Below, in pieces: positions 3,683 through 17,411 of a stretch of 32,000 bases of DNA. The position numbers and the translations under genes were made by a program. How positions within the stretch are numbered: the first letter of the stretch is position 1; each line of letters starts with the position of its first letter. The notes beneath the pieces are model-generated. The model was not told the origin of the DNA, ran no database searches, and saw only the letters and a program-made list of their open reading frames with translations. The stretch is from the NCBI RefSeq assembly GCF_001272835.1, contig NZ_CP010546.1, forward strand, positions 722,809 to 754,808, read 5' to 3'. This stretch comes from Mycoplasmoides pneumoniae FH. Its GTDB lineage: Bacteria > Bacillota_I > Bacilli_A > Mycoplasmatales > Mycoplasmoidaceae.

Positions 3683-4121
3683 GCTTCTTATTGAGCTTGG
3701 AAATCAGGTTTTTGCAATGATATTCCAAAGGTAGCCATGCAAATGATATCACTATTTTTAGCAATGGGAAAAATAACGTTGAAATTATTGTGGCAATCAC
3801 ATGAAAATATTGCGGTCTTATAAAAAAGGCGAGCAATACGGGAATCAGGTACAGCAAATACCGTGCCACAAAAAAGGAACCAAAGAAAACCGTAACTCGT
3901 TGTTTTGATAAATGCTTAAACTTTTCAAAAAAGTCCCCTAGTTTTAATAAACCAACCACGCTTAACGCTACAAACGGAAAGGGTAGTAACCAACCGTATA
4001 AAACTTTTAAGTGTTGGGTAGTTAAAGCTCAAACTAAAATACCCACTAAAACCACTAACCAAAGCACCAAGATAATGAGGGCAATTGCTTTAGTGAGTTT
4101 TTTATTGGTCCAGTTGTACAA
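3648..4121 (-). CDS. small polytopic membrane protein in the atpI position, upstream of atpB; function unknown
   Basis: Track ORF 3648-3959 extends upstream through one TGA. The frame opens after a TAA at 4142-4144 and contains no ATG. The best candidate start is TTG at 4119-4121 ([24 protein letters not shown]...). The sequence is hydrophobic and helical throughout. Confidence 0.5.
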
Positions 4122-4126
4122 GGCCG

Positions 4127-5506
<1,380 letters not shown>

Positions 5507-5551
5507 CTAACTAATATTTACTTAAATTATATTGACCAATAAATTTAGGAA

Positions 5552-6025
5552 ATGAAACAAATCTATTTTGGTGGTGGCTGTTTTTGGGGTACCCAAAAGT
5601 ATTTTGATCTGATTAAGGGTGTCCAAAAGACCAGTGTGGGCTACCTCAATTCCAACATGAAAAATCCCACTTACGAACAAGTATGTAGTGGGCAGACCAA
5701 CGCAGTGGAAGCAGTGTTCGTTGAATATGATGAAAACAAGGTAAGCTTAAACGAACTTATTGATGCTTTCTTTAAGGTCATTGATCCCACCATTAGAAAC
5801 CGTCAGGGTAATGATATTGGTACCCAGTACCGTACCGGAGTTTATTGGGTAGATCCCCAAGACGAGCAGTTAATTACGCAAAAGTTTAGGGAACTACAGG
5901 CCAATTATCCAAAACCAATTGTGACGGAAAACCGTGCAATGGAAAACTATTTTTTAGCAGAAGAGTACCACCAGGATTACTTAAAGAAAAATCCTCATGG
6001 TTACTGTCACATTAAGTTTGACTAG
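5552..6025 (+). CDS. msrA: peptide methionine-S-sulfoxide reductase
   Basis: 157-aa ORF with the N-terminal GGGCFWG catalytic motif and GNDIGTQYRTGVYW. ATG start, TAG stop. Confidence 0.95.
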   Translation: MKQIYFGGGCFWGTQKYFDLIKGVQKTSVGYLNSNMKNPTYEQVCSGQTNAVEAVFVEYDENKVSLNELIDAFFKVIDPTIRNRQGNDIGTQYRTGVYWVDPQDEQLITQKFRELQANYPKPIVTENRAMENYFLAEEYHQDYLKKNPHGYCHIKFD

Positions 6026-6699
6026 TTAAAGACTTCTGGGTTTTTCACAAACAGGAATGCCTTAATGATGTTGTAGCAATAGTCATTAATCCGTTCAATG
6101 TGTTTCACCGACAGAATTAAGTCAATTAAGAAGATGCGATCACTCAGCTTCTCGTCTTTAACCTTGTCATAGTATTCAGTTAACACGACGCGGTACTGCT
6201 GTTCAAACTCTGTCAGAATTTTAGTGACATTCTCAAACTGAATAGTAAGCGGTTTTTCCTTATCTTGTAAACTGGCAAACGTTTGCTTTAAGTTGTTCAA
6301 CACACTTTTGTGCAAATTAACTAACTTACTAAAGATGCTGACATCCAAGTGCTGGTAGTGCTTGACAAACTTAGTGAGGTTATTGGCATAATCACAAATG
6401 CGTTCCAAATCACGACTACACATAATGATCGTAATTGTTAAGCGTAAGTGGTTAGTTAACGGGGAGTTTTTTGAAATCGCTCAAATGGATTCGTTAATTA
6501 GTTTAAACTCCGATTTATTGGAAAAGTCTTCCATTTCGTAAATTGCTTGAATCAACTTTTCGCGCTTAGTTACATCCGCTTCACATAACAGTTTATTGAG
6601 TGTTTCATGCATCTTAATGACGTGCTGAAAGTAATCAAAAAAGAGTCCTAACAGCTTTTTTTCTGAACGCTTTAAAATTTGGTAGTTAATGCTTTCCAT
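6022..6699 (-). CDS. phoU: phosphate transport regulator PhoU
   Basis: Track ORFs 6022-6423 and 6481-6699 share a frame and join through TGA at 6481, giving 225 aa. It contains helical-repeat PhoU-like motifs (DLERICDYANN, IERINDYCYN) and lies downstream of pstB. Confidence 0.88.
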
Positions 6700-6701
6700 C
6701 G

Positions 6702-7691
6702 TTAATTCCTCCCACTAATGTAACGGTTAGTTTCCTTTTGCTTTGGTCTCGTAAAGATTTGCTTGGTAGTACCTTGTTCCACTACCCTTCCGTTAGCAAA
6801 GAAAATCGTTTCATCAGTGATTCTAATAGTTTGTGCCATTGAGTGAGTCACAATAATAATCGTGTATTTTTCCTTTAATTGCTGGATTAACAGCTCAATC
6901 GAGTTAGTGGCAATTGAGTCCAACGCACTAGTTGGTTCATCCATTAATAAGACATCGGGTTGTAGAGCAATGGCTCTGGCAATACACAACCGTTGTTGTT
7001 GACCACCCGAAAGGGTATTGGCATTACGGTGTAAGTTATCTTTGACCTCGTCCCATAAGGCGGTTGACTTTAAGGCCTGTTCCACAATTTCATGAATCGC
7101 TTGCTTGTTATGAATGCCATGGGCTCTCAGTCCATAGGCAATGTTTTCAAAGATGGAAAAGTTAAAAGGGGTGAGTTGCTGGAACACCATACCAACCCGT
7201 GTGCGCAAGGTTAAATCATTAATAATTCCGGAATTAATGTTTTTACCCAAAAAGAAAATCTTGCCATTTCAGCGCACATTTTCATTGAGGTCATTTAATT
7301 TATTTAAACAACGGATAAAGGTGGACTTACCACAACCGGATTTACCAATTAAAGCGGTAATCTTATTGCGCTTAATTTTGAGGTTAATGTCAAATAAGAC
7401 CTGCTTGTCCTTGTTGTACCAGAAGTTAAGGTTTTCAATTTCAAAGACATTCTTCTTGTCAAAGTCTTGTTTGACAACATCGTCCTTGGTATTCTTAATT
7501 TTGATGAGGCGTTGCAACACATCAATTTCACTCTGCAAGTTAGCAATTTCCTCAGCTTTGGTAGTGGGATCTAACTTAGCAACTTTTTGCTGGTATTGCT
7601 TAATTTGTTTTTCATATAAAGCACGGTACTGCTTCACCTTTTCGCGCTTTTGGATGAAGTTGTGTCAAATTGTTTTTAGGCCTTTTTTCAT
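6702..7691 (-). CDS. pstB: phosphate ABC transporter ATP-binding protein with ~75-aa N-terminal extension
   Basis: Track ORFs 6702-7250 and 7269-7637 share a frame and join via TGA. Extending upstream through one more TGA reaches ATG at 7689-7691 ([12 protein letters not shown]...), giving 329 aa. It has Walker [10 protein letters not shown], the LSGGQQQR signature and Walker [12 protein letters not shown]. Confidence 0.9.
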
Positions 7692-9631
7692 AATTGCAAT
7701 TTGCTTTTAATTTGTAATCACTTTTGTTTATTAAACGAAAACAGGTAAGGAATTAAGTAAGAGCTTAAAAAGATTAAGAACATCAGGAAGACAATTGATA
7801 CCAAAGCGGTTTCCAGCATTACATCAACCGCCGTACTGTTAGTGGAAAATAACTGACCATAAATTCTTGTGGTTAAGGTTTGACCCGGTAGACTTAAATC
7901 AAACAAGTTGCTGGATGCTAACCCAGCGGTAATAAAGAAAGGAGCTGTTTCCGCAATAATTCTGTTAATCGTTAAAATAAGCGCAATAATTAAACCCTTC
8001 AACGCCCCTGGTAACACAATTTTCCAAATTACTTCCCTTTTACTTACACCTAAGGCATAAGCACTTACCCGCAAGTCCCAACTGACATTATTGAGTGCTT
8101 CCTGACATGTGCGAATTAAAAAGGGTAAGACCACTACACTAATAGTAAGAATACCCGCCATTAAACTAGTACCATTCGCACCACCCGCACTTAATTGCAG
8201 TGTTCGCAAAAAGAAGGATAGACCAAACAATCCGTAAATAATCGAGGGCATCGAGCTGAGCGAATCAATTACAAAACTAAAGGTATTTTTTGCAATCCGC
8301 GACTTCGTGTATTCGTTTAATCAAATGGCAATTAACAAAGCGATTGGAAAGGTAATACCAATGGCAACCAGAATAATCACCAAGGTATTGACTAAAGCTC
8401 GCCCTGTAGTATCTACACCAAACGAAAAGACAGTGGAACCACTGCGCTGAATCGCTTGACTACCATTAATAAAAACAAACAAGAGAATCCCTAACACAAA
8501 ACCAAACGCTAAGACGGCACAAAAAATTTCCTGCAGGATTTTTCACGATGTGTAAACCTTATTTAAGTGGTTAGTCTGCATCCTTTCCTTGAAGAAGGTA
8601 GCGCGCTGCTCAACATTAGCAGCTGTAATCTTTTTAACCTGTTGTCTTCTAGCAGTTAAATCAGTAAAAAGAGCGCCAATGTTATTAGGAATAAACCACA
8701 CTACTTGATAAATAAAGTTACTAATCTTCTTTAGGAAAGGATAGCGTTCCAGCGTTTTTGGCCGGGTCGATCAAATGGCAAAAAAGTTCAAGAAGGAAAT
8801 TAAGACAAAGATAATAATGCCAAAAGTGTATAAGACCCCACTAACCTGTTCATCGCCGTTTTCCGAAAAGATAAAGGTGGAGATAACAGAACCCAAAGTT
8901 TTGAGATCTGAAGTAAAGAAACGATCATTAGCAATCACTTCCTGGTAGTTAACACTCTGCAAAATAAAGTTCACAGCCATCGTTTCGCTAATGGCACGAC
9001 CAAACGCTAATACCAAGATTACTACTAGTTGGGCTTTGATTTCCTTTTTAATTACCTTATAAATCACACTGGTTTTGTTTTCACCAAGTGAAATGGCAAC
9101 CGTCATTAAGCTAGATTCCACGTGCAGTAAGGCATTGGTGGTTAAGGAAATCACAATCGGAATGATCATGAAGGACAGCATCACAATCACGTTAAGCAGT
9201 GATAAGGGTGGCAAGTGCAACACGTCACGGAAGATACTGCTGAGAATTTGGGTAGCAAACAATCCAAAGATCACTGAAGGGATCCCGGACAGAATGTCAA
9301 TTACTAAAAGTAGTTTTTTGCGAATCCGGGGTTTGCAACGATAAACCAAGAAAATCGAAGTGCGAACACCGATATAGCTCGCAATAATTAACGAGCCAAT
9401 CGAAACCACAAAACTAACTAACAGCGGAAACCAGATGCTCGCTTTTTTAGCACCCAAGTTAAATTCCAAACCCAGTAAGGACTTGGTAAAGTCAGGACCA
9501 GTTTTAGCTGCTTCAATTAAGAGGAAAATAAAGAAGCTAATGAAGAGCAGTAAAAAACAAACAGCCACTGTTTGCGATAAGTACCGCAGCCAGTTGTCTT
9601 TTTTTAAACGGCTTTTAATTTTCTGTTTCAC
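7676..9631 (-). CDS. pstA: fused phosphate ABC permease (PstC-like N-half plus PstA-like C-half)
   Basis: Track ORFs 7718-8251 and 8771-9631 share a frame. I translated the 519-nt gap and found only TGA codons, no TAA/TAG. The track 3' end at 7718 is TGA, and the true TAA is at 7676-7678, giving 651 aa. Two permease signatures are present: GRAISETMAV (PstC-like) and IAETAPFF (PstA-like). The GTG start at 9629-9631 overlaps the pstS stop. Confidence 0.85.
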
Positions 9632-10788
9632 TAGAGTGCACCGAAGGTTTGGTTGTTCAGACTGTAATCATCAACCCAGAAGTTGGCAATGTTGCTCATT
9701 TCTGCATTACCTGTTTTAAACATCTTTTTCTTTTCGTCAGCCGTTAACTCTAACACACCAAAGTCATCGTATATTTTCTTAATTTCACTGTTGTTGCTAA
9801 ATAACAATCAGTTAAAAAAGCGTTGGATACTTGGCAGTGTTTTTTGTTTTGGTAACAGGGAAACCACTGAGTTCAACGGGCGTACCCATTTGTAAGTGTT
9901 GCTAGAAACTGCTTGACTGGAGGGGGTAACTGCGTTATTATCATATTTGACTTTTAAAACCTCAAAACCTTCACTCTTAATTAGGTTCATGTTGTTATTC
10001 ACAAACCCTAAACTGAGGTACACCATGCCGTATAAATTGGGTTGTCGCAAAGTTGTGACAAAGGTATTAAAGGCCTCAATGTTGGTTTCACTAGTTGGTC
10101 GCGCATTGGGGCCATAGTTGCGTTGACCTTCCAAAATTTCTTTGGAATCTTTATCTAAAGTTTTTGTCTGTGTAAGACCCGAAAACTTCAAGAAGGCTTC
10201 AGCGGTACCAGAAGCAAAAGCGCCCCCAGTACGGGGGAAGCCTATCAAATTATGATTACTGTTTTTAGTGGTTTGTCCGTTTTCGACAAACTTATTAATG
10301 TCAACGCTTTTGCTACCAGCGAACAGATCGTAAAGATCGTTGAGGTTGTCTTTAGTGAGAACTAGTTTGCCCTTAAACTCTGATGGTGCTTTATAAATAA
10401 CAGCAATGGCATCTTTGCCAAGTGTAATTGTTTTGAGCTTTTTGTCCATCCACAACTGCTTGTTTTCCTCAGCATAGCTCTTGGTGTTTTTCGAGACATT
10501 ACCAATGTCAGCTAGTCCCTTGGTGATTGCTTTCACCCCAGCACTAGAGCCACCCGCTTGGACACTAATTTCTACAAGGTTATCCTTGTCATTGTGGTTC
10601 AAGACATAGTGCGAACTGAGTTTGCTTAACAACGGTTGTACCGAAGAAGAACCAACAGCACTAATTAAATTAATATTGGCACAACCGCTAAAAATAACAG
10701 CGGTTAGTGATAGTAATGCTAGTCTAGAAAGTCTTGCAACTCTTAGCACTTTTCTAATTGTGTGCGTTAATTTTAGAAAAACTGGCAT
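9631..10788 (-). CDS. pstS: phosphate-binding lipoprotein PstS
   Basis: ATG start, then a signal peptide with lipobox (...[11 protein letters not shown]). PBP-type motifs follow ([17 protein letters not shown]). The track stop at 9808 is TGA; reading through gives TAG at 9631-9633 and 385 aa. Confidence 0.85.
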
Positions 10789-10876
10789 TTTCGGTACTTT
10801 TTAACCAACTTTTAATTAAGCAAGTTGCATTTCTTAGTTGTGCTTTAAGTAGTTAAAAACAACGATTTTCTGGCGT

Positions 10877-11008
10877 TTATTCTTTGCCAATTGTTTCCTT
10901 TGCTAATTTCTTTTTACGAGAGGCTGCTTTTCTTTTAATCATTCAACCAATGGCCGTGGCACCTAAAGCTAACACTCCAGCAATCGCTGATAAAGATCAG
11001 GTCAACAT
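10877..11008 (-). CDS. paralog A tail segment: 43-aa TM helix plus basic tail, in frame with the upstream segment
   Basis: Same frame as 11030-11977 and directly after its TAA. From ATG 11006-11008 it reads MLTWSLSAIAGVLALGATAIGWMIKRKAASRKKKLAKETIGKE. This mirrors the C-terminal anchor of paralog B. Independent expression is unproven. Confidence 0.35.
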
Positions 11009-11029
11009 CTGGTTAGTTTTAGCACTAGT

Positions 11030-11977
11030 TTAATCAGTGTCATCTTTATTGTCCAACTTTTCCAGTGCAAAGGCTTTGTTTTGGGTGTGGAAATCAAAGA
11101 CTGGTTTTTGTCTAAACTGGAAGTTGTTTTCCTTTAAGAATCTAGCTAGTTGTTGTGCTAGCTTAGTTTGACTGTCATTTTTAATGTTGAACCAAACTGA
11201 CTTTTCTAGACCATCTTTATTAATGAGATATAGCATTTGCTTATTTTGTGATAGCTTTAAGTCATAGTTAATTGCAAAAAGTCTTTGACTACCCAACATT
11301 GCTTGAATGGAGAGCTGACTAGTATAGCGATCAACATGGAACTCTAAGTTGAACTTTTGGTTGTTTTTTAAAACGGTTAAATAAGCCATTTTATTTACCG
11401 GATTCAACCTAGCATTCTTCGTTTCCACATGGAGGTTCATTTGACTCAAAACAATGTTGAGTTTTTCCAATAACACTTGTTCATCTTGCAAACTAAAGTC
11501 TGATTGAAACTCAAACTCATAGTCATCTATTAATTGGATGTTGGATGTTTCTATATCTAATTTGCCAATTTCGAATTCATCAAACATAAAGCTCACTGTT
11601 TGGGTTTCCAAGTGGGGTTTAAACCACAACTTTTGTTTGTCAAGCAACAGCTTGCGCGTATTAATTTTGAACAAGTAAGTGCGTGTGTTGGGCTTTATTT
11701 GATTTTGTTTAACAAAGTACATTTGCCCTTTTATAATTTCGGGATCGATCGTGGAACCTAACTTAAACAGTTCGTTGCTGTTGTGGATGTCGGCTAACAC
11801 ATAGAAGAAACCTTTGTTTTCGTTCATGTTTCCTAAATCAAGTTTGTATTGTCGGGGATCTTCCACAAAGGTTAAGCTGTTAGCATCTACATCTAACACG
11901 GTTTTATCAACACCAGCAAAACTGTTTTTAATGACAAAAACAATTTGTTGCTTTTCAAAATCATTGAGTTTTTCCAT
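11030..11977 (-). CDS. paralog A C-terminal segment (315 aa), unknown function
   Basis: ORF with ATG start and TAA stop. It is collinear with paralog B segment 14138-15172 (for example EIIKGQMYFVKQNQIKPNTRTYLF versus EIIKGQMYFLKKETKIPTIRTYLF). Confidence 0.6.
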   Translation of the reverse strand: MEKLNDFEKQQIVFVIKNSFAGVDKTVLDVDANSLTFVEDPRQYKLDLGNMNENKGFFYVLADIHNSNELFKLGSTIDPEIIKGQMYFVKQNQIKPNTRTYLFKINTRKLLLDKQKLWFKPHLETQTVSFMFDEFEIGKLDIETSNIQLIDDYEFEFQSDFSLQDEQVLLEKLNIVLSQMNLHVETKNARLNPVNKMAYLTVLKNNQKFNLEFHVDRYTSQLSIQAMLGSQRLFAINYDLKLSQNKQMLYLINKDGLEKSVWFNIKNDSQTKLAQQLARFLKENNFQFRQKPVFDFHTQNKAFALEKLDNKDDTD

Positions 11978-12043
11978 GCGTTGCTTTAACTCACCTACAC
12001 TAAAGCTTTTAATCGCTTTGTGTAACGGAACACTAAAGTCCTT

Positions 12044-14023
12044 TTATTTAAATTGCTGGTTGCTAAAGTTACTGCGATATTTAAATTTGTACTGGTAACC
12101 TTCTGGAATTTTGTTGATCGTTGGTAGGTTTTTCACTGCACCAAAAAGTTGATCAACTACTTGGAAGTGCAAGTTTTCTGATTCATAACCGTCAACAATA
12201 AAATCCAAACTTAAAAAGTTAATGGTGTATTCGTTGGAAGCGTGTTGTTGTGGTGTCAAGTATTTTTCTCAAGTTTTGATATCAAACACATTGACATTGT
12301 TTTTAAGCAACGTAATTTCTTGCAAGGTATCACCAATTTTGACTTTAGCTAAAAGTTTGGCTCGTGCAAAAATAGTTTGCAACATCTCTGGTAAGTTCCT
12401 AATGAAGATAAGGTGTTCTTTATTGGTAGGCTCCATCCCTAATAAGTCATAGAGGTACTGCAAGCTAGCAAAATTAACGTTGCTGTCCTTGGACTTTAAA
12501 GAGTCAAACTTTTGTAGCGCTGTTGCTTTATCAGTAGCTAAATCAATCTCTTCGTTCAACTTACTAATTTGGGCAATCGCTTGAGTAAACTCCTTTTTGA
12601 ACATTATTTGTAATTGATCTTTTTGAGATAGATCTTTTTCATTAAATGTTTTGGACAGAGTATCCACTACCGAATTAGGGTCAAATTGTAATTGTGAAAG
12701 TCACAACCTAGAAAGTTGACTAAAACTAATAGGTGGTTTTAGATCTGCATTATGTTGTTCCACATAAAAGTCAACACCAAAGCGCTGAGCGTTTACTGGG
12801 ATAATTGGGGTGTATTTGAAAATGTCCCACTTATTGCTAAACAAACTTTGTTCCTCATCATCAGTTAATGGCTTTACTACAACGTTTTTACCCATATTCA
12901 AGATTGATTGGGTTACTTGGCGGTTTCTAGTAAAGGCTTCCATGATCTTACGATCTTTAATTACCTTATCTTTAAAACCATTGGAACTACTTCAATATGC
13001 ATTTGCTTGCTTGTTATCAATGGAAAATACTCAAGTTTCTTTTGGTAATACTGGCTCATTCCACTGAACATTATCTTGTTCAAATACTCTAGGTGTTTTA
13101 ATTAACTCCACCTCTCAAAAAACACGATAAATGTAAATGGGAGTTGATTCCAACCACCAGTTATTTCAAAGAGTGGCAATGAAAATATTGTTTGGTCTAT
13201 CTTCAAAGAAACCATCATTTTGTGTTATTGCATAGGCATTAAAAATAATAAAGTAATTGCCATTTTTTCCTTGTTTAATTCACTTAGCATTTTGAACAAT
13301 GTCATTTATGTTAGGTGACTTAACTGATAAGGAACGGTTCATAAAACCGAAAAAAACATTAATCCATTTAAAGTCTTTATTTCTATTCCATACAGGACTA
13401 AATAGCCTTTGGGTTTCTAAGTTATAAGGAATAGATCATCCTGCGTTTTTAGCTTCTTCGGCAGTTCGACCAGCGCTTAATGTCACATATTTATCATGCT
13501 GTGGATACCACGGGTCATTAATGCGAGATGGTCCAAAACCAGACTTACTATCATTGTGAAAGTGGAAATACTGAAGGTCGTGTATATCTGATTTAAAGGA
13601 GTTTCTAACTCCGGGATAGCTAAAAGTTTTGTTCCATGCCAAACTGCTAGTATAGCTACTTTCAATGCCTAAGTTAACATCTTTGATGTAATAGATATTG
13701 TTATACCAATTAAAGTTATTTTCTCTAAGCAATTGGTTATACCGGTCATAATAGCCATCCGCTAGCTGAGTTCAAAGGGTGGAATAGTTTCAACCAAAAG
13801 TAGTTTTGTTATTTGGTTTATAAATTAAAGGATTTTCGAAATTAAAGTCTTTACGGAAATAACTATCCTTTAATTTGATCCCAACAGTAAACCCTTGATT
13901 GTGGTGTGCTGAGTTAGAAATATACAAACTACTATCAACAAGATTTTTATCCAACGACGCGTTCGCTAAAAGAGTTGGGAACGCAACAAAACCTAATAAA
14001 GGTAAATAATGATATGAGCGCAT
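12044..14023 (-). CDS. paralog A N-terminal segment (659 aa): signal peptide plus Trp-rich module plus conserved core; ends at an in-frame TAA
   Basis: Track ORFs 13790-14023, 13436-13732, 12701-12943, 12269-12667 and 12044-12259 all share one frame. I translated every gap and found only TGA codons. The ATG start gives MRSYHYLPLLGFVAFPTLLANAS, a signal-like N-terminus. Confidence 0.65.
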
Positions 14024-14075
14024 AATTAATTCACTTTTTCATCTATTAAATTGCTCAAAAAGGGAATTGACGCCA

Positions 14076-14169
14076 ATTTTTTAAAAGTTTTTATTTATCC
14101 GTTTTGACAACTGCTTTTTGTTATTTTTTAAAAGTTTTTATTTATCCGTTTTGACAACTGCTTTTTGTT
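14076..14169. repeat. perfect 47-bp tandem duplication (2 copies) spanning the stop codon and 3' end of paralog B
   Basis: The unit attttttaaaagtttttatttatccgttttgacaactgctttttgtt occurs at 14076-14122 and again at 14123-14169 with no mismatch. Confidence 0.95.
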
Positions 14170-15172
14170 TGTGCGATTTCAAACTCTTTTTGCGCTTGTA
14201 AAAGTAAAAACTAAAAGCAACTACCACTAAAAACAGACTACTAGCAGCAATTACTAAGTAACCAATAAAATTGGTGTTTTTATTTTCACCATTATTTGGT
14301 TGAGCCTGTTTGGCGATTTTAAAAGTTGCGGTATTATCCTGCAGTTTAAGCGGAATCTTTTCTTTTAAGTACATCTGCTTACTTTGAAGAAATAACTGCA
14401 AGGTATCGAGCAATTTAGCTTGGTATCGTTGATCAGCAACAGACCAGATATACATGCCTAAATGCTTGTTGCGGTTAACAAGTTGTAGAGTGTTTGAATT
14501 TTTAATCACTAGTTCATAATCCAACTTAAATAATGGTTGTTCGTCAACCTTAACAATTACATTAAGTTCACTAGCTTTTGGATTAAATTCAACATCAAAA
14601 TCAAACGATTGATCTATTGACTTTGTAGTGAGTCTTATTTGTTTGGGAAAAGTTTCTATGTTAGTAGCTTGTTCATCAACCATTAAGTTCATGCCAACTA
14701 ATGCAAGGTTCAGTCTTCTTATTAAAAGTTGCTTATCAGCTAACGTTAAGGTAGAAACCAAATCTACTTGGTAATCGTTAAAGAAAGCAACGTTAGGCAA
14801 TTTGGGATCAAATTGATCTAATTCAATCCCGTCTACAATTACCTTAACTTTGTCATTGTTAGCTTGAAATCAAACGTCATTGGCATTCAAAGCAATTTTG
14901 TGTGTTCTCATTTGAAACAAGTAAGTACGAATTGTTGGAATCTTTGTTTCTTTTTTGAGAAAGTACATCTGGCCTTTAATAATTTCCCGATTGGAATCTG
15001 TGCCTCATTTAAAGAAATTATTGCTGTTAGTAATTTCTGCTGCAATATAGAAGATGCCCGTTTTAGGATTTGTCGGAATTAAACCAGGAATTAGTTCTTC
15101 AGGATTTTTAACTAATTTGATTGAATTTAAGGCAACAGTTAATGCCGTATCATCCTGAAATGAAAAAACCAT
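14138..15172 (-). CDS. paralog B C-terminal segment (344 aa) with C-terminal TM anchor
   Basis: Track ORF 14138-14800 extends upstream in frame through 2 TGA codons (translated codon by codon, no TAA/TAG) to ATG 15170-15172, just after an in-frame TAA at 15179-15181. It ends ...FIGYLVIAASSLFLVVVAFSFYFYKRKKSLKSHKQKAVVKTDK. Confidence 0.6.
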
Positions 15173-16112
15173 TTTTAATTACAAAAGCTATTTGGTTTTT
15201 CTGCTCTTCAGTCAATTCTTTATCTTGGATGTCTAAAACGCTAAACTCCTTGCCGTTATTAACGACGGGAATGCTAAAACGATATTTATTGAAATACTGT
15301 TCGTTGTAATTTGAGCGAAACCTTAAACGGTATTGAATGCCCTGGTTTGTTTTTTGAATGGTTGGTTTATTTTTAGCAGATTCAAATAAAGAAAACACAG
15401 GTAAATTCTTCGCTGTTCAACTAGGATATTGATCTGATATGAAATCAAAAGAGAGAAATTCAACTTCAAATAAATTAATGCTAATTTGATCTAAATTTAA
15501 GAATTGTTCAAACTGGCCTAGATTAAAAACGTTATTGTTGTTTTTAACTAAAGTAATCTTTCTTAATTGCCCACCCATCCTAACTTGAAAGTTAATGGAT
15601 GCAGACTCAAAAATTGTTTTTAAAAGCCTTGGTAAATCACGAACAAGACTTAATTCTTGAGGATCCCTAAAATCAAAATTTAGCAGTTTATAAAGGTAGC
15701 TTAGGCGTTCTCATTGCTGTTTTCGTTCAACATTTTTAAGCGTTAAGAAATTTTGTAAAACTGTATTTTTATCAATTGCTTGATCAACTAACTGATTAAG
15801 CTCTGTAATTTCTTGAATCGCTAAGGTAAATTCCCTTTTAAAACGTAATTTCAAAAGAGCTTTTTGGCCAAGCGTTCGGTTATTAAAGGTGATAGAAGTA
15901 TTATCAACTATTGAATCAGGGTCAAACTCTAATTGAACTAAAATAATTCGCGATAGCTGATTGAACTGAATAGGTGATTGATTTTCGCTCTCTACTAAAT
16001 TTTTTGTTAAGTAAAACGAGCTGTCAATTACATGTGAATTGATAGTTGCGCTAGAGAGCAACAGTGGGGTTAATGAAAAACCCATTAATTTTCAATATTT
16101 CAAAAAAGGCAT
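15108..16112 (-). CDS. paralog B N-terminal segment (334 aa) with signal peptide; frame ends shortly after a T6 run
   Basis: Track ORFs 15711-16085 and 15150-15398 share a frame and join through TGA codons (gap translated). The frame extends upstream to ATG 16110-16112 (MPFLKYWKLMGFSLTPLLLSSATINS). That N-terminus aligns with the paralog A N-terminus. True stop is TAA at 15108-15110. Confidence 0.6.
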
Positions 16113-16197
16113 GGCAATCTTTACATTCAATAAATTGAACTAAAGTTTTTAACTTGCCAATTTTTAGAAAATTAGTGCTTTAAAGCTTTTTAAATTA

Positions 16198-17339
16198 CTA
16201 AGCTAATTGTTTGGAAAAGTGAGCAATCTTGCTAAAGATTAAATGGTAGTAATAATCCAATTGCTTTTTGCGCATTTCGATTTCAGCAGGAATACCTTCT
16301 ACTAAATCATTGCAAAGTTTTTCAAAGGCAAAGAGAATATCAGCAATCTTTTCTTGAATTTCTAGAGGTGGAAAAGAGAGTTCAATTTCAGCCATTACTT
16401 TTTGGCTTAGTTTTGGTCTTGAAGCTAGATTATGAACGAATTTTGGTGCTTCTATCTTTAATAAAAAGGATAGGAATTTGGTGCAGATTTTTTTATTTTT
16501 AACTTTTAAAACACCGCAATCTTGTGATGCATTAAACTTGCCATTACGATAAAAAACTACTCCAGCATAACCATTTGTAGTTCAAGTGATGTATTCACCA
16601 TCAAAGTCGCAATCTTTAATGCGTCCTAACTCACCATCATTTGTGGTAGCTGCGGAATAAACTGGATTTTCTCCAGGATTATTCCTAATATACGCTTTAG
16701 TGATCGCTCGACCTCTTCTAATTTCACAAATATCCTTTACTTGAAAAGTTTCGAAAGGTATATTTGCTCCGTAAATTTTTCGGATATTTTCTTGGTTGAG
16801 CAGATAATCGCGATAGAAGGCATACTGCTTCTTTCGCTCTCTTAGCTCGGCGCTTAGCTCGGCGCTTAGCTCGGCGCTTAGCTCGGCGCTTAGCTCGGAA
16901 AAGTATCTAAGATAGTAGCAATTTTCTCTTGAATTTGCAAAGGTGGGAAATCTAGCTCAATTTCTGCTAAAATTCCTTGCATTAATTTAGGAATAGGGCA
17001 AGCATAATTAACAAATTTAGGTGTTTCTAATCTAAGTGCATAAGCTAAAAACTTAGTATTAATTTCATCACTTTTTACCTTAAGAATTCCACAAACATTG
17101 GTTGCGTTAAATTGACCGTTACGATAAAAAACACTACCAGCTTGGGCTCCATCAGTTGTTCAAGTGACGTACTCTCCATTAAAATCACAATCCTTTATCT
17201 TACCGATTTCACCGTTATTAACTGTTGCTGATGAATAAACAGGGAATTCTCCTGGATTGTTTTTGATATATAGTTTGCTGATAACTCTACCGCGTTTAAT
17301 ATCGCAAATATCTTTGATTTTGAAACGTTTAATCAACAC
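16198..17339 (-). pseudogene. hsdS: type I restriction-modification specificity subunit (HsdS), two homologous TRDs, frame broken between the halves
   Basis: The N-half ORF (16890-17339, GTG start) reads ...FKIKDICDIKRGRVISK...ELDFPPLQIQEKIATILDTFPS*. The C-half is in another frame down to TAG 16198 and reads SELSAELSAELSAELSAELRERKKQY...FQVKDICEIRRGRAITK...ELSFPPLEIQEKIADILFAFEKL. No hsdM or hsdR lies adjacent. Confidence 0.8.
16841..16898. repeat. 12-bp tandem repeat (cttagctcggcg, 4 full copies plus a 10-nt partial), encoding (ELSA)n on the minus strand in the HsdS central region
   Basis: Direct reading gives cttagctcggcg at 16841, 16853, 16865 and 16877, then cttagctcgg at 16889-16898. 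Confidence 0.97.
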
Positions 17340-17411
17340 AGTAAAACTTAATCTCCTTTAAGTTTAAAGATTAAGTGGGGAACTGGACAGCTCAAAGTTT
17401 ATTGAAAAAAA

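What the first reader, a model, noticed from the sequence alone, without database searches (positions are those of the whole stretch)
10877..16112. Tandem pair of collinear paralogous surface-type proteins of unknown function, both interrupted, between the pst operon and an orphan hsdS
The two adjacent minus-strand loci (A: 10877-14023; B: 14138-16112) align collinearly over their whole shared length. Example block pairs, A then B:
- NLVDSSLY / HVIDSSFY
- ISFSQLSRLWLSQLQFDPNSVVD / IQFNQLSRIILVQLEFDPDSIVD
- QIVFVIKN / QIAFVIKN
- EIIKGQMYF in both
- TRTYLF / IRTYLF

Each locus begins with a signal-like N-terminus and ends with a hydrophobic helix plus a Lys/Arg tail. This predicts a large ectodomain anchored at the C-terminus. 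I recognise no enzymatic or binding motif.

Both copies are broken within about 40 aligned codons of the same region (A by TAA at 12044, B by a frame break near 15165). Each therefore splits into a secreted-type N-part and an anchored C-part. Disruption of both paralogs at nearly the same place argues against random decay and suggests a selected two-part or switchable architecture.
Basis: seen in the sequence. Interest (0 to 1): 0.7.

Follow-up and report, generated by a model that had tools for sequence, protein, structure and literature searches.

The report
Broken sigma-20-controlled surface protein gene pair
These are the Mycoplasma pneumoniae copies of two already known, rarely switched-on M. 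genitalium membrane-protein genes (MG414 and MG415), and they are breaking down by different mutations in different strains rather than being built as deliberate two-part genes.

Summary
Read with TGA as Trp, locus A (10877-14023) and locus B (14138-16112) are collinear paralogs: 36% identity over 595 aa, E 4e-109. Both have a signal-like N-terminus and a C-terminal helix with a Lys/Arg tail.

They are the M. pneumoniae orthologs of M. genitalium MG_414 and MG_415/MG_525. Both are published members of the sigma-20 (MG428/MPN626) recombination and gene-transfer regulon. Each locus has the published promoter motif just upstream, and these are the only two matches in the window. The sigma-20 gene itself lies at 30013-30531.

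The "selected two-part architecture" reading fails for A:
- The TAA at 12044 is a lineage-specific GAA-to-TAA change, found in FH-like type 2 strains. M129 has an open 997-codon ORF.
- Other lineages carry different frameshifts, at codons ~92 and ~225.

B's frameshift sits in a T6 run and is present in every M. pneumoniae sequence recovered. M. genitalium MG415 is usually intact. Published mutants in these genes grow faster.

Best reading: costly, normally silent genes that are decaying.

One point remains unexplained: four independent B-type lesions in the two species fall within about 12 codons.

The parts
16130..16160 (-). Sigma-20 (MPN626)-type promoter of locus B: TTGGCA-N19-ATTTAT, 17 nt upstream of the ATG
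   Evidence: one of only 2 matches to TTGGCR-N18/19-ATTYAW in 32 kb (0.24 expected). It is the same sequence listed for MPN614 in PMC4446450.
15108..16112 (-). Locus B N-part (MPN614-type ORF, 334 aa). Signal-like N-terminus. Reads 20 out-of-frame codons past the frameshift to a TAA.
   Evidence: cluster with AAB95876, 'Uncharacterized protein MPN_614'.
15163..15168 (-). T6 run holding the B frameshift. T5 would be in frame. An ATG at 15170-15172 opens the downstream ORF.
   Evidence: The same state is seen in L001 and in every M. pneumoniae cluster member listed.
14138..15172 (-). Locus B C-part (MPN613-type ORF, 344 aa) with a C-terminal TM helix and KR tail
   Evidence: (AAB95877, 'MG415 homolog').
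14076..14169 (.). Perfect 47-bp x 2 tandem repeat. It spans the B stop codon and abuts the -35 box of A's promoter.
   Evidence: An MLVA typing locus is reported in 'MPN613' (PMC9203060). That this repeat is that locus is my inference.
14046..14076 (-). Sigma-20-type promoter of locus A: TTGGCG-N19-ATTTAA, 22 nt upstream of the ATG
   Evidence: It is the same sequence listed for MPN612 in PMC4446450.
12044..14023 (-). Locus A piece 1 (659 codons): signal peptide, A-specific N-domain and first part of the shared module. Ends at the lineage-specific TAA (12044-12046).
   Evidence: T in the window, G in L001 at 12046; E660 in the M129-type 997-aa protein.
11030..12043 (-). Locus A piece 2 (337 in-frame codons; annotated elsewhere as a 315-aa ORF from the ATG at 11977). 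Ends at the TAA at 11030-11032, which is shared by every M. pneumoniae sequence recovered.
10877..11029 (-). Locus A piece 3: 50 in-frame codons encoding the severed TM helix and Lys/Arg tail
30013..30531 (+). Gene for the alternative sigma factor (MPN626 / sigma-20 ortholog, 172 aa), the inferred regulator of both loci
   Evidence: PF08281 Sigma70_r4_2, 26.1 bits against a cutoff of 25.7. It follows an OsmC gene and a hairpin terminator, as described for mpn625/ter625/MPN626 in 10.1101/2025.02.06.636790.

Best explanation
**Identity (shown).** Loci A and B are the M. pneumoniae orthologs of M. genitalium MG_414 and MG_415 (renamed MG_525). These are two paralogous type I membrane proteins with a large ectodomain. 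Each is its own transcription unit behind a promoter for the alternative sigma factor sigma-20 (MG428 in M. genitalium, MPN626 in M. pneumoniae). The sigma-20 gene lies 14 kb away in the same window.

**Regulation and role in M. genitalium (published).** Sigma-20 is active in under 1% of cells. It co-induces recA, ruvAB and these surface proteins as part of a programme that drives homologous recombination and DNase-resistant gene transfer.

**Function (inferred).** The pair acts at the cell surface during that rare sigma-20-ON state, as accessory factors for cell contact or DNA exchange. MG_525 contributes to recovery of recombinants. MG_414 does not, as far as has been measured.

**State in M. 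pneumoniae (lesions shown, pseudogene status inferred).** The genes are decaying.
- B carries a +1 T frameshift in every sequence recovered.
- A lost its membrane anchor to a TAA in every sequence recovered.
- A has since picked up different extra lesions in different lineages: TAA at codon 660 in the FH-like strain of this window, and frameshifts at codons ~92 and ~225 elsewhere.

**Cause (inferred).** Published M. genitalium mutants in these genes grow faster. Recurrent inactivation is therefore best explained by relaxed or positive selection for loss, not by a designed split or an on/off switch.
For: **Paralogy.**

**Orthology and synteny** (rpsI - [hsdS in M. pneumoniae] - B - A - pstS)..

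**Promoters.** The only two matches in 32 kb sit directly upstream of A and B. The equivalent M. genitalium motifs are upstream of MG415 and MG414 in L002.

**Literature.**
- PMC4446450: promoters, qRT-PCR up-regulation of MG_414 and MG_525, and a TSS mapped for MG_414.
- Same paper: a ten-fold drop in recombinants for delta-MG_525 and none for delta-MG_414.
- Same paper: Glass et al. transposon hotspots and faster growth of the mutants.
- PMC6105099: MG_414 up 15-fold on sigma-20 overexpression, and sigma-20-linked, DNase-resistant marker transfer.
- PMC6753208: MG414 and MG415 are among the transposon hotspots.

**Sigma factor gene in the window.**

**Lesion survey.**
- Window versus L001 DNA.
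- Cluster members: M129 997 aa with E660; FH 659+315; strain 309 238+432+315; a large clade 91+900.
- All end at ...DNKDDTD.
- MG414 is intact at 1036 aa and MG415 at 664 aa in most M. genitalium genomes.

**Recurrent, varied MG415 lesions in M. genitalium samples.**

**Anchor loss also in some M. genitalium MG414 alleles** (1002 aa, frameshift before the TM)..

**Family distribution.** It extends to M. testudinis and uncultured Mycoplasmatales with the same signal-peptide-plus-anchor design. The M. testudinis gene has a sigma-20-like motif at its start.
Against: - No expression or peptide data for M. pneumoniae MPN612-614 could be retrieved. 'Pseudogene' is therefore inferred from sequence only.
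- Both halves of B, and all pieces of A, are still open. They are as similar to the M. genitalium orthologs after the breaks as before: A 47/48.5/47%, B 42/42%. Decay is thus recent, or the pieces are still constrained.
- Both sigma-20 promoters are perfectly kept.
- Four independent B-type lesions cluster within ~12 codons: three in M. genitalium of three different mutation types, plus the M. pneumoniae one. The uniform-model p is ~0.001, though the window was chosen post hoc. Simple random loss does not predict this.
- The surface role in DNA exchange is inference. No fold or motif supports it.
Confidence: 0.72

Rival explanations
1. Selected two-part architecture. Truncation at a specific point is favoured. 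The cell then makes a secreted N-terminal fragment (MPN614-type, with signal peptide) and a separate C-terminal anchored fragment (MPN613-type, starting at the ATG created at the junction).
For: - Four independent lesions of different kinds fall within ~12 codons of a 664-codon gene in two species.
- Homopolymers there are ordinary: A5/T5, against up to A7/T7 elsewhere in the gene.
- An ATG lies in frame with the downstream half exactly at the junction.
- Both halves are open in every M. pneumoniae sequence recovered.
- Conservation is equal before and after the break.
- A-type genes lost only the anchor twice, independently.
Against: - The reference and most M. genitalium genomes have an intact 664-aa MG415.
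- Other M. genitalium lesions lie at codons ~246, ~455, ~571 and 596.
- The C-part would lack a signal peptide, so its large domain could not reach the surface in the native topology (inference).
- Within-species diversity is so low (99.7% identity) that open downstream ORFs say little.
- The clustering statistic is post hoc and rests on 8 events.
Confidence: 0.13
2. Phase-variable contingency locus. Slippage in the T-run (B) reversibly switches the surface protein ON and OFF.
For: The B break lies in a homopolymer (T6, 15163-15168). One M. genitalium isolate has a 1-bp change in the neighbouring A5 run.
Against: - No in-frame B allele appears among the M. pneumoniae cluster members, which stand for many hundreds of contigs.
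- T6 is short for high-frequency slippage (general knowledge of mycoplasma phase variation).
- A's lesions are nonsense substitutions, which are not reversible by slippage.
- Two of the three clustered M. genitalium lesions are a C-to-T nonsense change and a 2-bp deletion.
Confidence: 0.05
3. Recoding. Full-length proteins are still made, by programmed +1 ribosomal frameshifting on GGT TTT TTC (B) and by stop-codon readthrough (A).
For: T6 is a slippery sequence on which tRNA-Phe could re-pair in the +1 frame.
Against: - The M. genitalium ortholog is in frame at this site, so no conserved recoding signal exists.
- No stop or rare codon follows the slippery site. The zero frame runs 20 more codons.
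- TAA660 reads GAA in other strains.
- No supporting data were found.
Confidence: 0.04
4. Sequencing or assembly error, or a single-strain artefact.
For: None beyond the homopolymer context of the B break.
Against: - The same B frameshift and the same TAA998 occur in independent assemblies of M129, FH, 309 and hundreds of other contigs.
- TAA660 is shared by FH-type strains: 151 contigs for the 315-aa product.
Confidence: 0.01

Closest known systems
M. genitalium MG_414 and MG_415/MG_525, members of the sigma-20 (MG428) regulon (Torres-Puig et al. 2015, 2018)
   Same: - Orthologous sequences: A is 45-48% identical to MG414 and B 42% identical to MG415.
- Same gene order next to pstS.
- Same signal peptide, ectodomain, TM helix and KR tail design.
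- Each gene has its own sigma-20 promoter.
   Different: - Here both genes are interrupted: A by two TAA codons, B by a frameshift.
- In M. pneumoniae, an hsdS remnant lies between rpsI and B.
Bacterial pseudogenes formed by lineage-specific nonsense and frameshift mutations in reduced genomes
   Same: - Different disabling mutations in different lineages.
- Intact orthologs in the sister species.
- Published growth advantage of knock-outs.
   Different: - The promoters are intact and all pieces are still open.
- Lesions in the B-type gene are clustered rather than scattered.
Homopolymer-driven phase-variable mycoplasma surface proteins (my own knowledge, e.g. poly-A tracts in vaa or P78)
   Same: A surface-protein gene with a frameshift in a mononucleotide run.
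   Different: The run is only 6 nt. No ON allele is seen in the species. The paralog's lesions are base substitutions.
P1 / P40-P90 type I membrane adhesins of the M. pneumoniae group (my own knowledge)
   Same: A large ectodomain with an N-terminal signal sequence and a single C-terminal TM helix.
   Different: No sequence or profile similarity (Pfam adhesin families not hit). No fold match. Controlled by sigma-20 and silent in normal culture.

Membership tests
MG414/MG415 protein family (sigma-20-regulated membrane proteins of Mycoplasmoides) | Significant full-length sequence homology to MG414 and MG415 | tested here: met
   MG414, 925 bits, 45% identity, 98% coverage. B versus MG415, 42% identity end to end; profile hits at E = 0.
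MG414/MG415 protein family (sigma-20-regulated membrane proteins of Mycoplasmoides) | Conserved position between the rpsI side and the pstS-pstA-pstB-phoU operon | tested here: met
   same gene order in M. pneumoniae L001 and M. genitalium L002.
MG414/MG415 protein family (sigma-20-regulated membrane proteins of Mycoplasmoides) | Signal-like N-terminus plus single C-terminal TM helix and basic tail | tested here: met
   The design is present at DNA level, but the ORFs are interrupted before the anchor.
Sigma-20 (MG428/MPN626) regulon | Promoter TTGGCR-N18/19-ATTYAT (M. pneumoniae form) immediately upstream of the gene | tested here: met
   2 matches in 32 kb, at 14046-14076 and 16130-16160, against 0.24 expected. 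They are identical to those tabulated in PMC4446450.
Sigma-20 (MG428/MPN626) regulon | Transcription induced by the sigma factor | not testable with these tools
   Shown for MG_414 and MG_525 in M. genitalium (PMC4446450, PMC6105099). No M. pneumoniae data were retrieved.
Phase-variable contingency gene | Long simple-sequence tract at the break, with both ON and OFF alleles in the population | tested here: not met
   The tract is T6 only. All M. pneumoniae members are frameshifted. A's lesions are substitutions.
Programmed ribosomal frameshift gene | Frameshift site and stimulatory signal conserved in orthologs | tested here: not met
   M. genitalium MG415 is a single in-frame 664-aa ORF. No stop or rare codon lies at the site.
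Pseudogene | Independent disabling mutations in different lineages, with an intact ortholog in a sister species | tested here: met
Pseudogene | Relaxed sequence constraint after the break, or loss of expression | tested here: inconclusive
   Identity to M. genitalium is equal before and after the breaks. Window versus L001 shows 4 nonsynonymous changes against 1 synonymous in A (one of the four lies in the severed tail), but the numbers are tiny. No expression data are available.

The most novel reading that the evidence does not exclude
The B-type gene (MG415/MPN613-614) has a preferred breakpoint at the end of a helical hairpin, between an N-terminal module and a beta-rich anchored module. 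Different mutations converge there in M. pneumoniae and in several M. genitalium isolates. A-type genes repeatedly lose only the anchor. On this reading, selection favours converting these sigma-20-induced membrane proteins into released N-terminal fragments, rather than simply destroying them.
Probability: 0.12. Interest if true: 0.6.

Novelty: already known. Interest (0 to 1): 0.3.

Why it matters
The pair is not an uncharacterised oddity. It belongs to the only alternative-sigma regulon known in these minimal bacteria, the one that controls recombination, antigenic variation and a mobile-element-independent form of gene transfer in M. genitalium.

If its two surface components are dead or dying in every M. 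pneumoniae lineage, that may bear on why the two sister pathogens differ in genetic exchange. That link is my inference.

It also gives strain-typing markers: TAA660 for FH-like strains, the codon-92 deletion for another clade, and the 47-bp repeat.

The clustering of independent lesions is a small, testable puzzle.

Tried and rejected
- **Table-11 ORF list.** Useless here. I redid the ORF calling with table 4.
- **Family and profile searches.** Pfam, NCBIfam, PHROGs, PADLOC and a PDB profile search found no family.
- **The search for homologous proteins.**
  - It returned nothing for repaired B and only two proteins for A and for the family profile.
  - The word index seems swamped by low-complexity words, so 'no hit' there is not evidence.
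  - The exhaustive representative search found the distant relatives.
- **The search for related loci.** It failed with the full family alignment. It worked with a 181-aa core block but gave only M. testudinis and one MAG.
- **AlphaFold models.**
  - The A-type model is poor in the N-domain (pLDDT 61.5).
  - The MG415 model is fair (pLDDT 75, pTM 0.50).
  - Foldseek against PDB gave no hit at E <= 0.001 for either model.
  - BFVD hits at E ~8e-4 have TM scores of 0.11-0.16 and rmsd of 18 A, so I reject them.
- **Fusogen or phage receptor-binding idea.** I considered it for the ectodomain and found no support.
- **Literature.** Supplements with M. pneumoniae proteome and transcriptome tables were not held. 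Glass et al. 2006 was not held, so I cite it only through PMC4446450 and PMC6753208.
Full report
**Checking the observation**

The tools translate with table 11, which breaks this region into fragments. With table 4 (TGA = Trp), the minus strand between the PstS-like gene (9631-10800) and the hsdS remnants (16198-17357) resolves into four long ORFs:
- 12044-14080
- 11030-12043
- 15108-16139
- 14138-15178

Locus A, read from the ATG at 14023, is one reading frame interrupted by two in-frame TAA codons:
- The second, at 11030-11032 (codon 998), was missed.
- After the second TAA, 50 more in-frame codons (10877-11029) encode the hydrophobic helix and the Lys/Arg tail.

Locus B, read from the ATG at 16112, changes frame inside AATGGTTTTTTC. 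The T6 run lies at 15163-15168. Deleting one T gives ...QIAFVIKNGFSFQDD..., which aligns with A's ...QIVFVIKNSFAGVDK....

BLASTP of repaired A (1048 positions) against repaired B (657 aa) gives a single collinear HSP: 36% identity over 595 aa, E 4e-109. A second short HSP joins the two signal-like N-termini. B therefore looks like A without A's residues ~37-420. The two breaks are about 42 aligned codons apart. All the quoted motif pairs are present.

**Identity of the genes**

A homology search returned two proteins:
- a 99%-identical 900-aa M. pneumoniae protein;
- the 1036-aa M. genitalium protein MG414 (45% identity over 98% of the query).

Cluster listings give the public names:
- A = 'MG414 homolog' (997 aa in M129, AAB95878).
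- B N-part = MPN_614 (334 aa, AAB95876).
- B C-part = 'MG415 homolog' (344 aa, AAB95877).

The window's protein pieces are identical to those of strain FH/NCTC10119, so the window comes from an FH-like type 2 strain.

The M. genitalium locus (L002) and a second M. pneumoniae genome (L001) show the same gene order: rpsI, B, A, pstS-pstA-pstB-phoU. M. pneumoniae has an hsdS remnant between rpsI and B.

**What is already known about them**

Torres-Puig et al. (PMC4446450) showed that MG_414 and MG_525 belong to the regulon of the alternative sigma factor MG428 (sigma-20). MG_525 is the current tag for MG415: compare the transposon hotspot lists in PMC4446450 and PMC6753208. Their findings:
- Each gene has its own promoter, TTGTCA-N18/19-ATTWAT.
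- Both genes are up-regulated when MG428 is overexpressed.
- A sigma-20-dependent TSS was mapped for MG_414.
- Deleting MG_525 lowered recovery of recombinants ten-fold. Deleting MG_414 had no effect.
- The paper tabulates the M. pneumoniae counterparts: TTGGCG-N19-ATTTAA before MPN612 and TTGGCA-N19-ATTTAT before MPN614.

I searched the window for TTGGCR-N18/19-ATTYAW. There were exactly two matches, at 14046-14076 and 16130-16160 on the minus strand. These lie 22 and 17 nt upstream of the A and B start codons. The chance expectation was 0.24. The M. genitalium-type motif likewise occurs exactly twice in L002, in front of MG415 and MG414.

Other published points:
- PMC6105099 reports MG_414 up 15-fold on sigma-20 overexpression. 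It links sigma-20 to DNase-resistant marker transfer between cells.
- Both papers, and PMC6753208, relay from Glass et al. that transposon insertions in MG414, MG415, recA and MG428 made up 31% of all mutants.
- They also relay that MG414 and MG525 mutants grew faster.

The regulator is in this window as well. The ORF at 30013-30531 (+) encodes a 172-aa protein with a sigma-70 region 4 domain (PF08281, above the Pfam cutoff). It is preceded by an OsmC gene and a strong hairpin terminator. This matches the mpn625-ter625-MPN626 arrangement described in 10.1101/2025.02.06.636790.

**Are the interruptions fixed, variable or designed?**

Aligning 9.5 kb of the window with L001 (99.7% identity) shows:
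- Position 12046 is T here and G there, so TAA versus GAA.
- L001 instead has a 1-bp deletion at window 13748, which splits A into 91 + 900 aa.

Mapping all cluster members onto A gives four allelic states in M. pneumoniae:

| Lineage | State of A |
|---|---|
| M129-type | open 1-997 (E660) |
| FH-type (this window) | TAA660, giving 659 + 315 aa |
| Strain 309-type | TAA660 plus a frameshift at codon ~225, giving 238 + 432 + 315 aa |
| Large clade including L001 | frameshift at codon ~92 |

Every member ends at ...DNKDDTD. The TAA that severs the anchor is therefore common to every M. pneumoniae sequence recovered.

M. genitalium MG414 is intact with its anchor (1036 aa). Some strains, however, have a 1002-aa allele that frameshifts just before the TM helix.

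For B, every M. pneumoniae member has the frameshifted lengths (325-340 aa and 276-344 aa, differing only in the start call). No ~657-aa form appears, although fragments of M. genitalium MG415 did cluster with the full-length 664-aa protein. MG415 is an intact 664-aa ORF in G37 and most M. genitalium genomes.

From this:
- A's break at 12044 is a recent, lineage-specific, irreversible substitution. It is not a design feature.
- The B break is a lesion found in every M. pneumoniae sequence recovered, not a switch.
- The proximity of the two breaks is not significant on its own: about 14% for one pair, and more given A's several lesions.

**How old is the decay?**

Identity to the M. genitalium orthologs is the same before and after each break:
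- A: 47%, 48.5%, 47%. Only the short tail drops, to 26%.
- B: 42% and 42%.

All pieces remain open and both promoters are exact. Within-species divergence is only ~0.3%, so this is what recent inactivation would look like. It does not prove continued function.

**An unexplained pattern**

M. genitalium samples carry many different MG415 lesions:
- a 2-bp deletion at codon 315 (ERR1192741);
- CAA to TAA at codon 317 (ERR486828);
- a 1-bp deletion in an A5 run at codons 322-323 (ERR486839);
- others at codons ~246, ~455, ~571 and 596.

The M. pneumoniae +T aligns to M. genitalium codon ~325. Four of eight lesions, of four different mutational kinds, thus lie within ~12 of 664 codons. A uniform model gives p ~0.001, although the window was chosen after seeing the data.

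The homopolymers there are ordinary. The M. genitalium gene has 45 runs of at least 5 nt, and several reach 7.

In the AlphaFold model of MG415 (pLDDT 75, pTM 0.50), these codons end a helical hairpin (302-325). The hairpin lies between an N-terminal module (50-275) and a beta-rich module (342-612) that leads to the TM helix. A's TAA660 aligns to a low-confidence linker: residues 278-281 in the MG415 model and 652-661 in the A model.

It could equally reflect a local mutational hotspot, or chance.

**What the proteins are**

- No Pfam, NCBIfam, PHROG or PADLOC family matches.
- No PDB sequence relative was found.
- No Foldseek match to PDB was found. BFVD hits have TM scores too low to mean anything.
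- The exhaustive profile search found only a handful of distant relatives (E 1e-10 to 1e-4). All are long A-type proteins with a signal peptide, TM helix and basic tail.
- One relative is from M. testudinis and another from an uncultured Mycoplasmatales MAG.
- The best-conserved block is G-x-FYA-x(3)-I-x-NSN-x-L ... R-x-YL.
- The M. testudinis gene is single-copy, not next to pst. It has one sigma-20-like motif (TTCTCA-N19-ATTTAT) 20 nt before its ATG. This is the only such motif in 12.5 kb.

B therefore probably arose from an A-type gene by duplication and loss of the N-domain, before the M. pneumoniae / M. genitalium split (inference).

**Verdict**

The finding is real, but it describes known genes: the MG414/MG415 orthologs of the sigma-20 regulon, in a decaying state.

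The mechanism I commit to is as follows. These are sigma-20-driven, normally silent surface proteins that act during the rare recombination and gene-transfer state. They are costly in culture and are being lost in M. pneumoniae through lineage-specific lesions.

- Shown: the regulon membership (for M. genitalium), the promoter motifs in this window and the lesion pattern.
- Inferred: the surface role and the pseudogene status.

Novelty is low. The lesion clustering is the only new and possibly interesting element.

Noticed in passing
window 30013-30531 (+), with 29453-29878 and ~29906-29938: The gene for the alternative sigma factor (MPN626 / sigma-20 ortholog, 172 aa, Sigma70_r4_2) lies in the same window. 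It sits behind an OsmC-like gene and a strong hairpin terminator (GAAAAAATACCTGA...TCAGGTATTTTTTT).
   Followed up: partly
window 14076-14169: A perfect 47-bp x 2.0 tandem repeat covers the last codons and stop of B and ends at the -35 box of A's promoter. It is probably the MLVA typing locus reported in 'MPN613'. Copy number would change the spacing between B and A's promoter.
   Followed up: partly
window 16841-16898 and 16198-17357: A 12-bp unit (CTTAGCTCGGCG) repeated 4.8 times sits inside the hsdS remnant, which is itself split into two overlapping ORFs. L001 differs here by one repeat unit and a 1-bp insertion.
   Followed up: no
L002, L005, L006, L007 (M. genitalium MG415): Four M. genitalium read sets each carry a different disabling mutation in MG415. 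Three of them fall within 25 nt (gene positions 943-967), next to the site of the M. pneumoniae frameshift.
   Followed up: partly
P0019 / P0024 (M. genitalium MG414, 1002 aa): Some M. genitalium strains have an MG414 allele that frameshifts just before the TM helix (...KLEKMKLKNKIQMLS). This parallels the anchor-severing TAA in M. pneumoniae.
   Followed up: no
L003 3632-3662 (M. testudinis): The single-copy M. testudinis homolog (3683-7077) has a sigma-20-like motif, TTCTCA-N19-ATTTAT, 20 nt upstream of its ATG. It is the only relaxed match in 12.5 kb.
   Followed up: partly
window 13748 versus L001 5985: A 1-bp deletion, relative to this window, defines a large M. pneumoniae clade (A = 91 + 900 aa; more than 300 contigs). 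It is a possible lineage marker.
   Followed up: no
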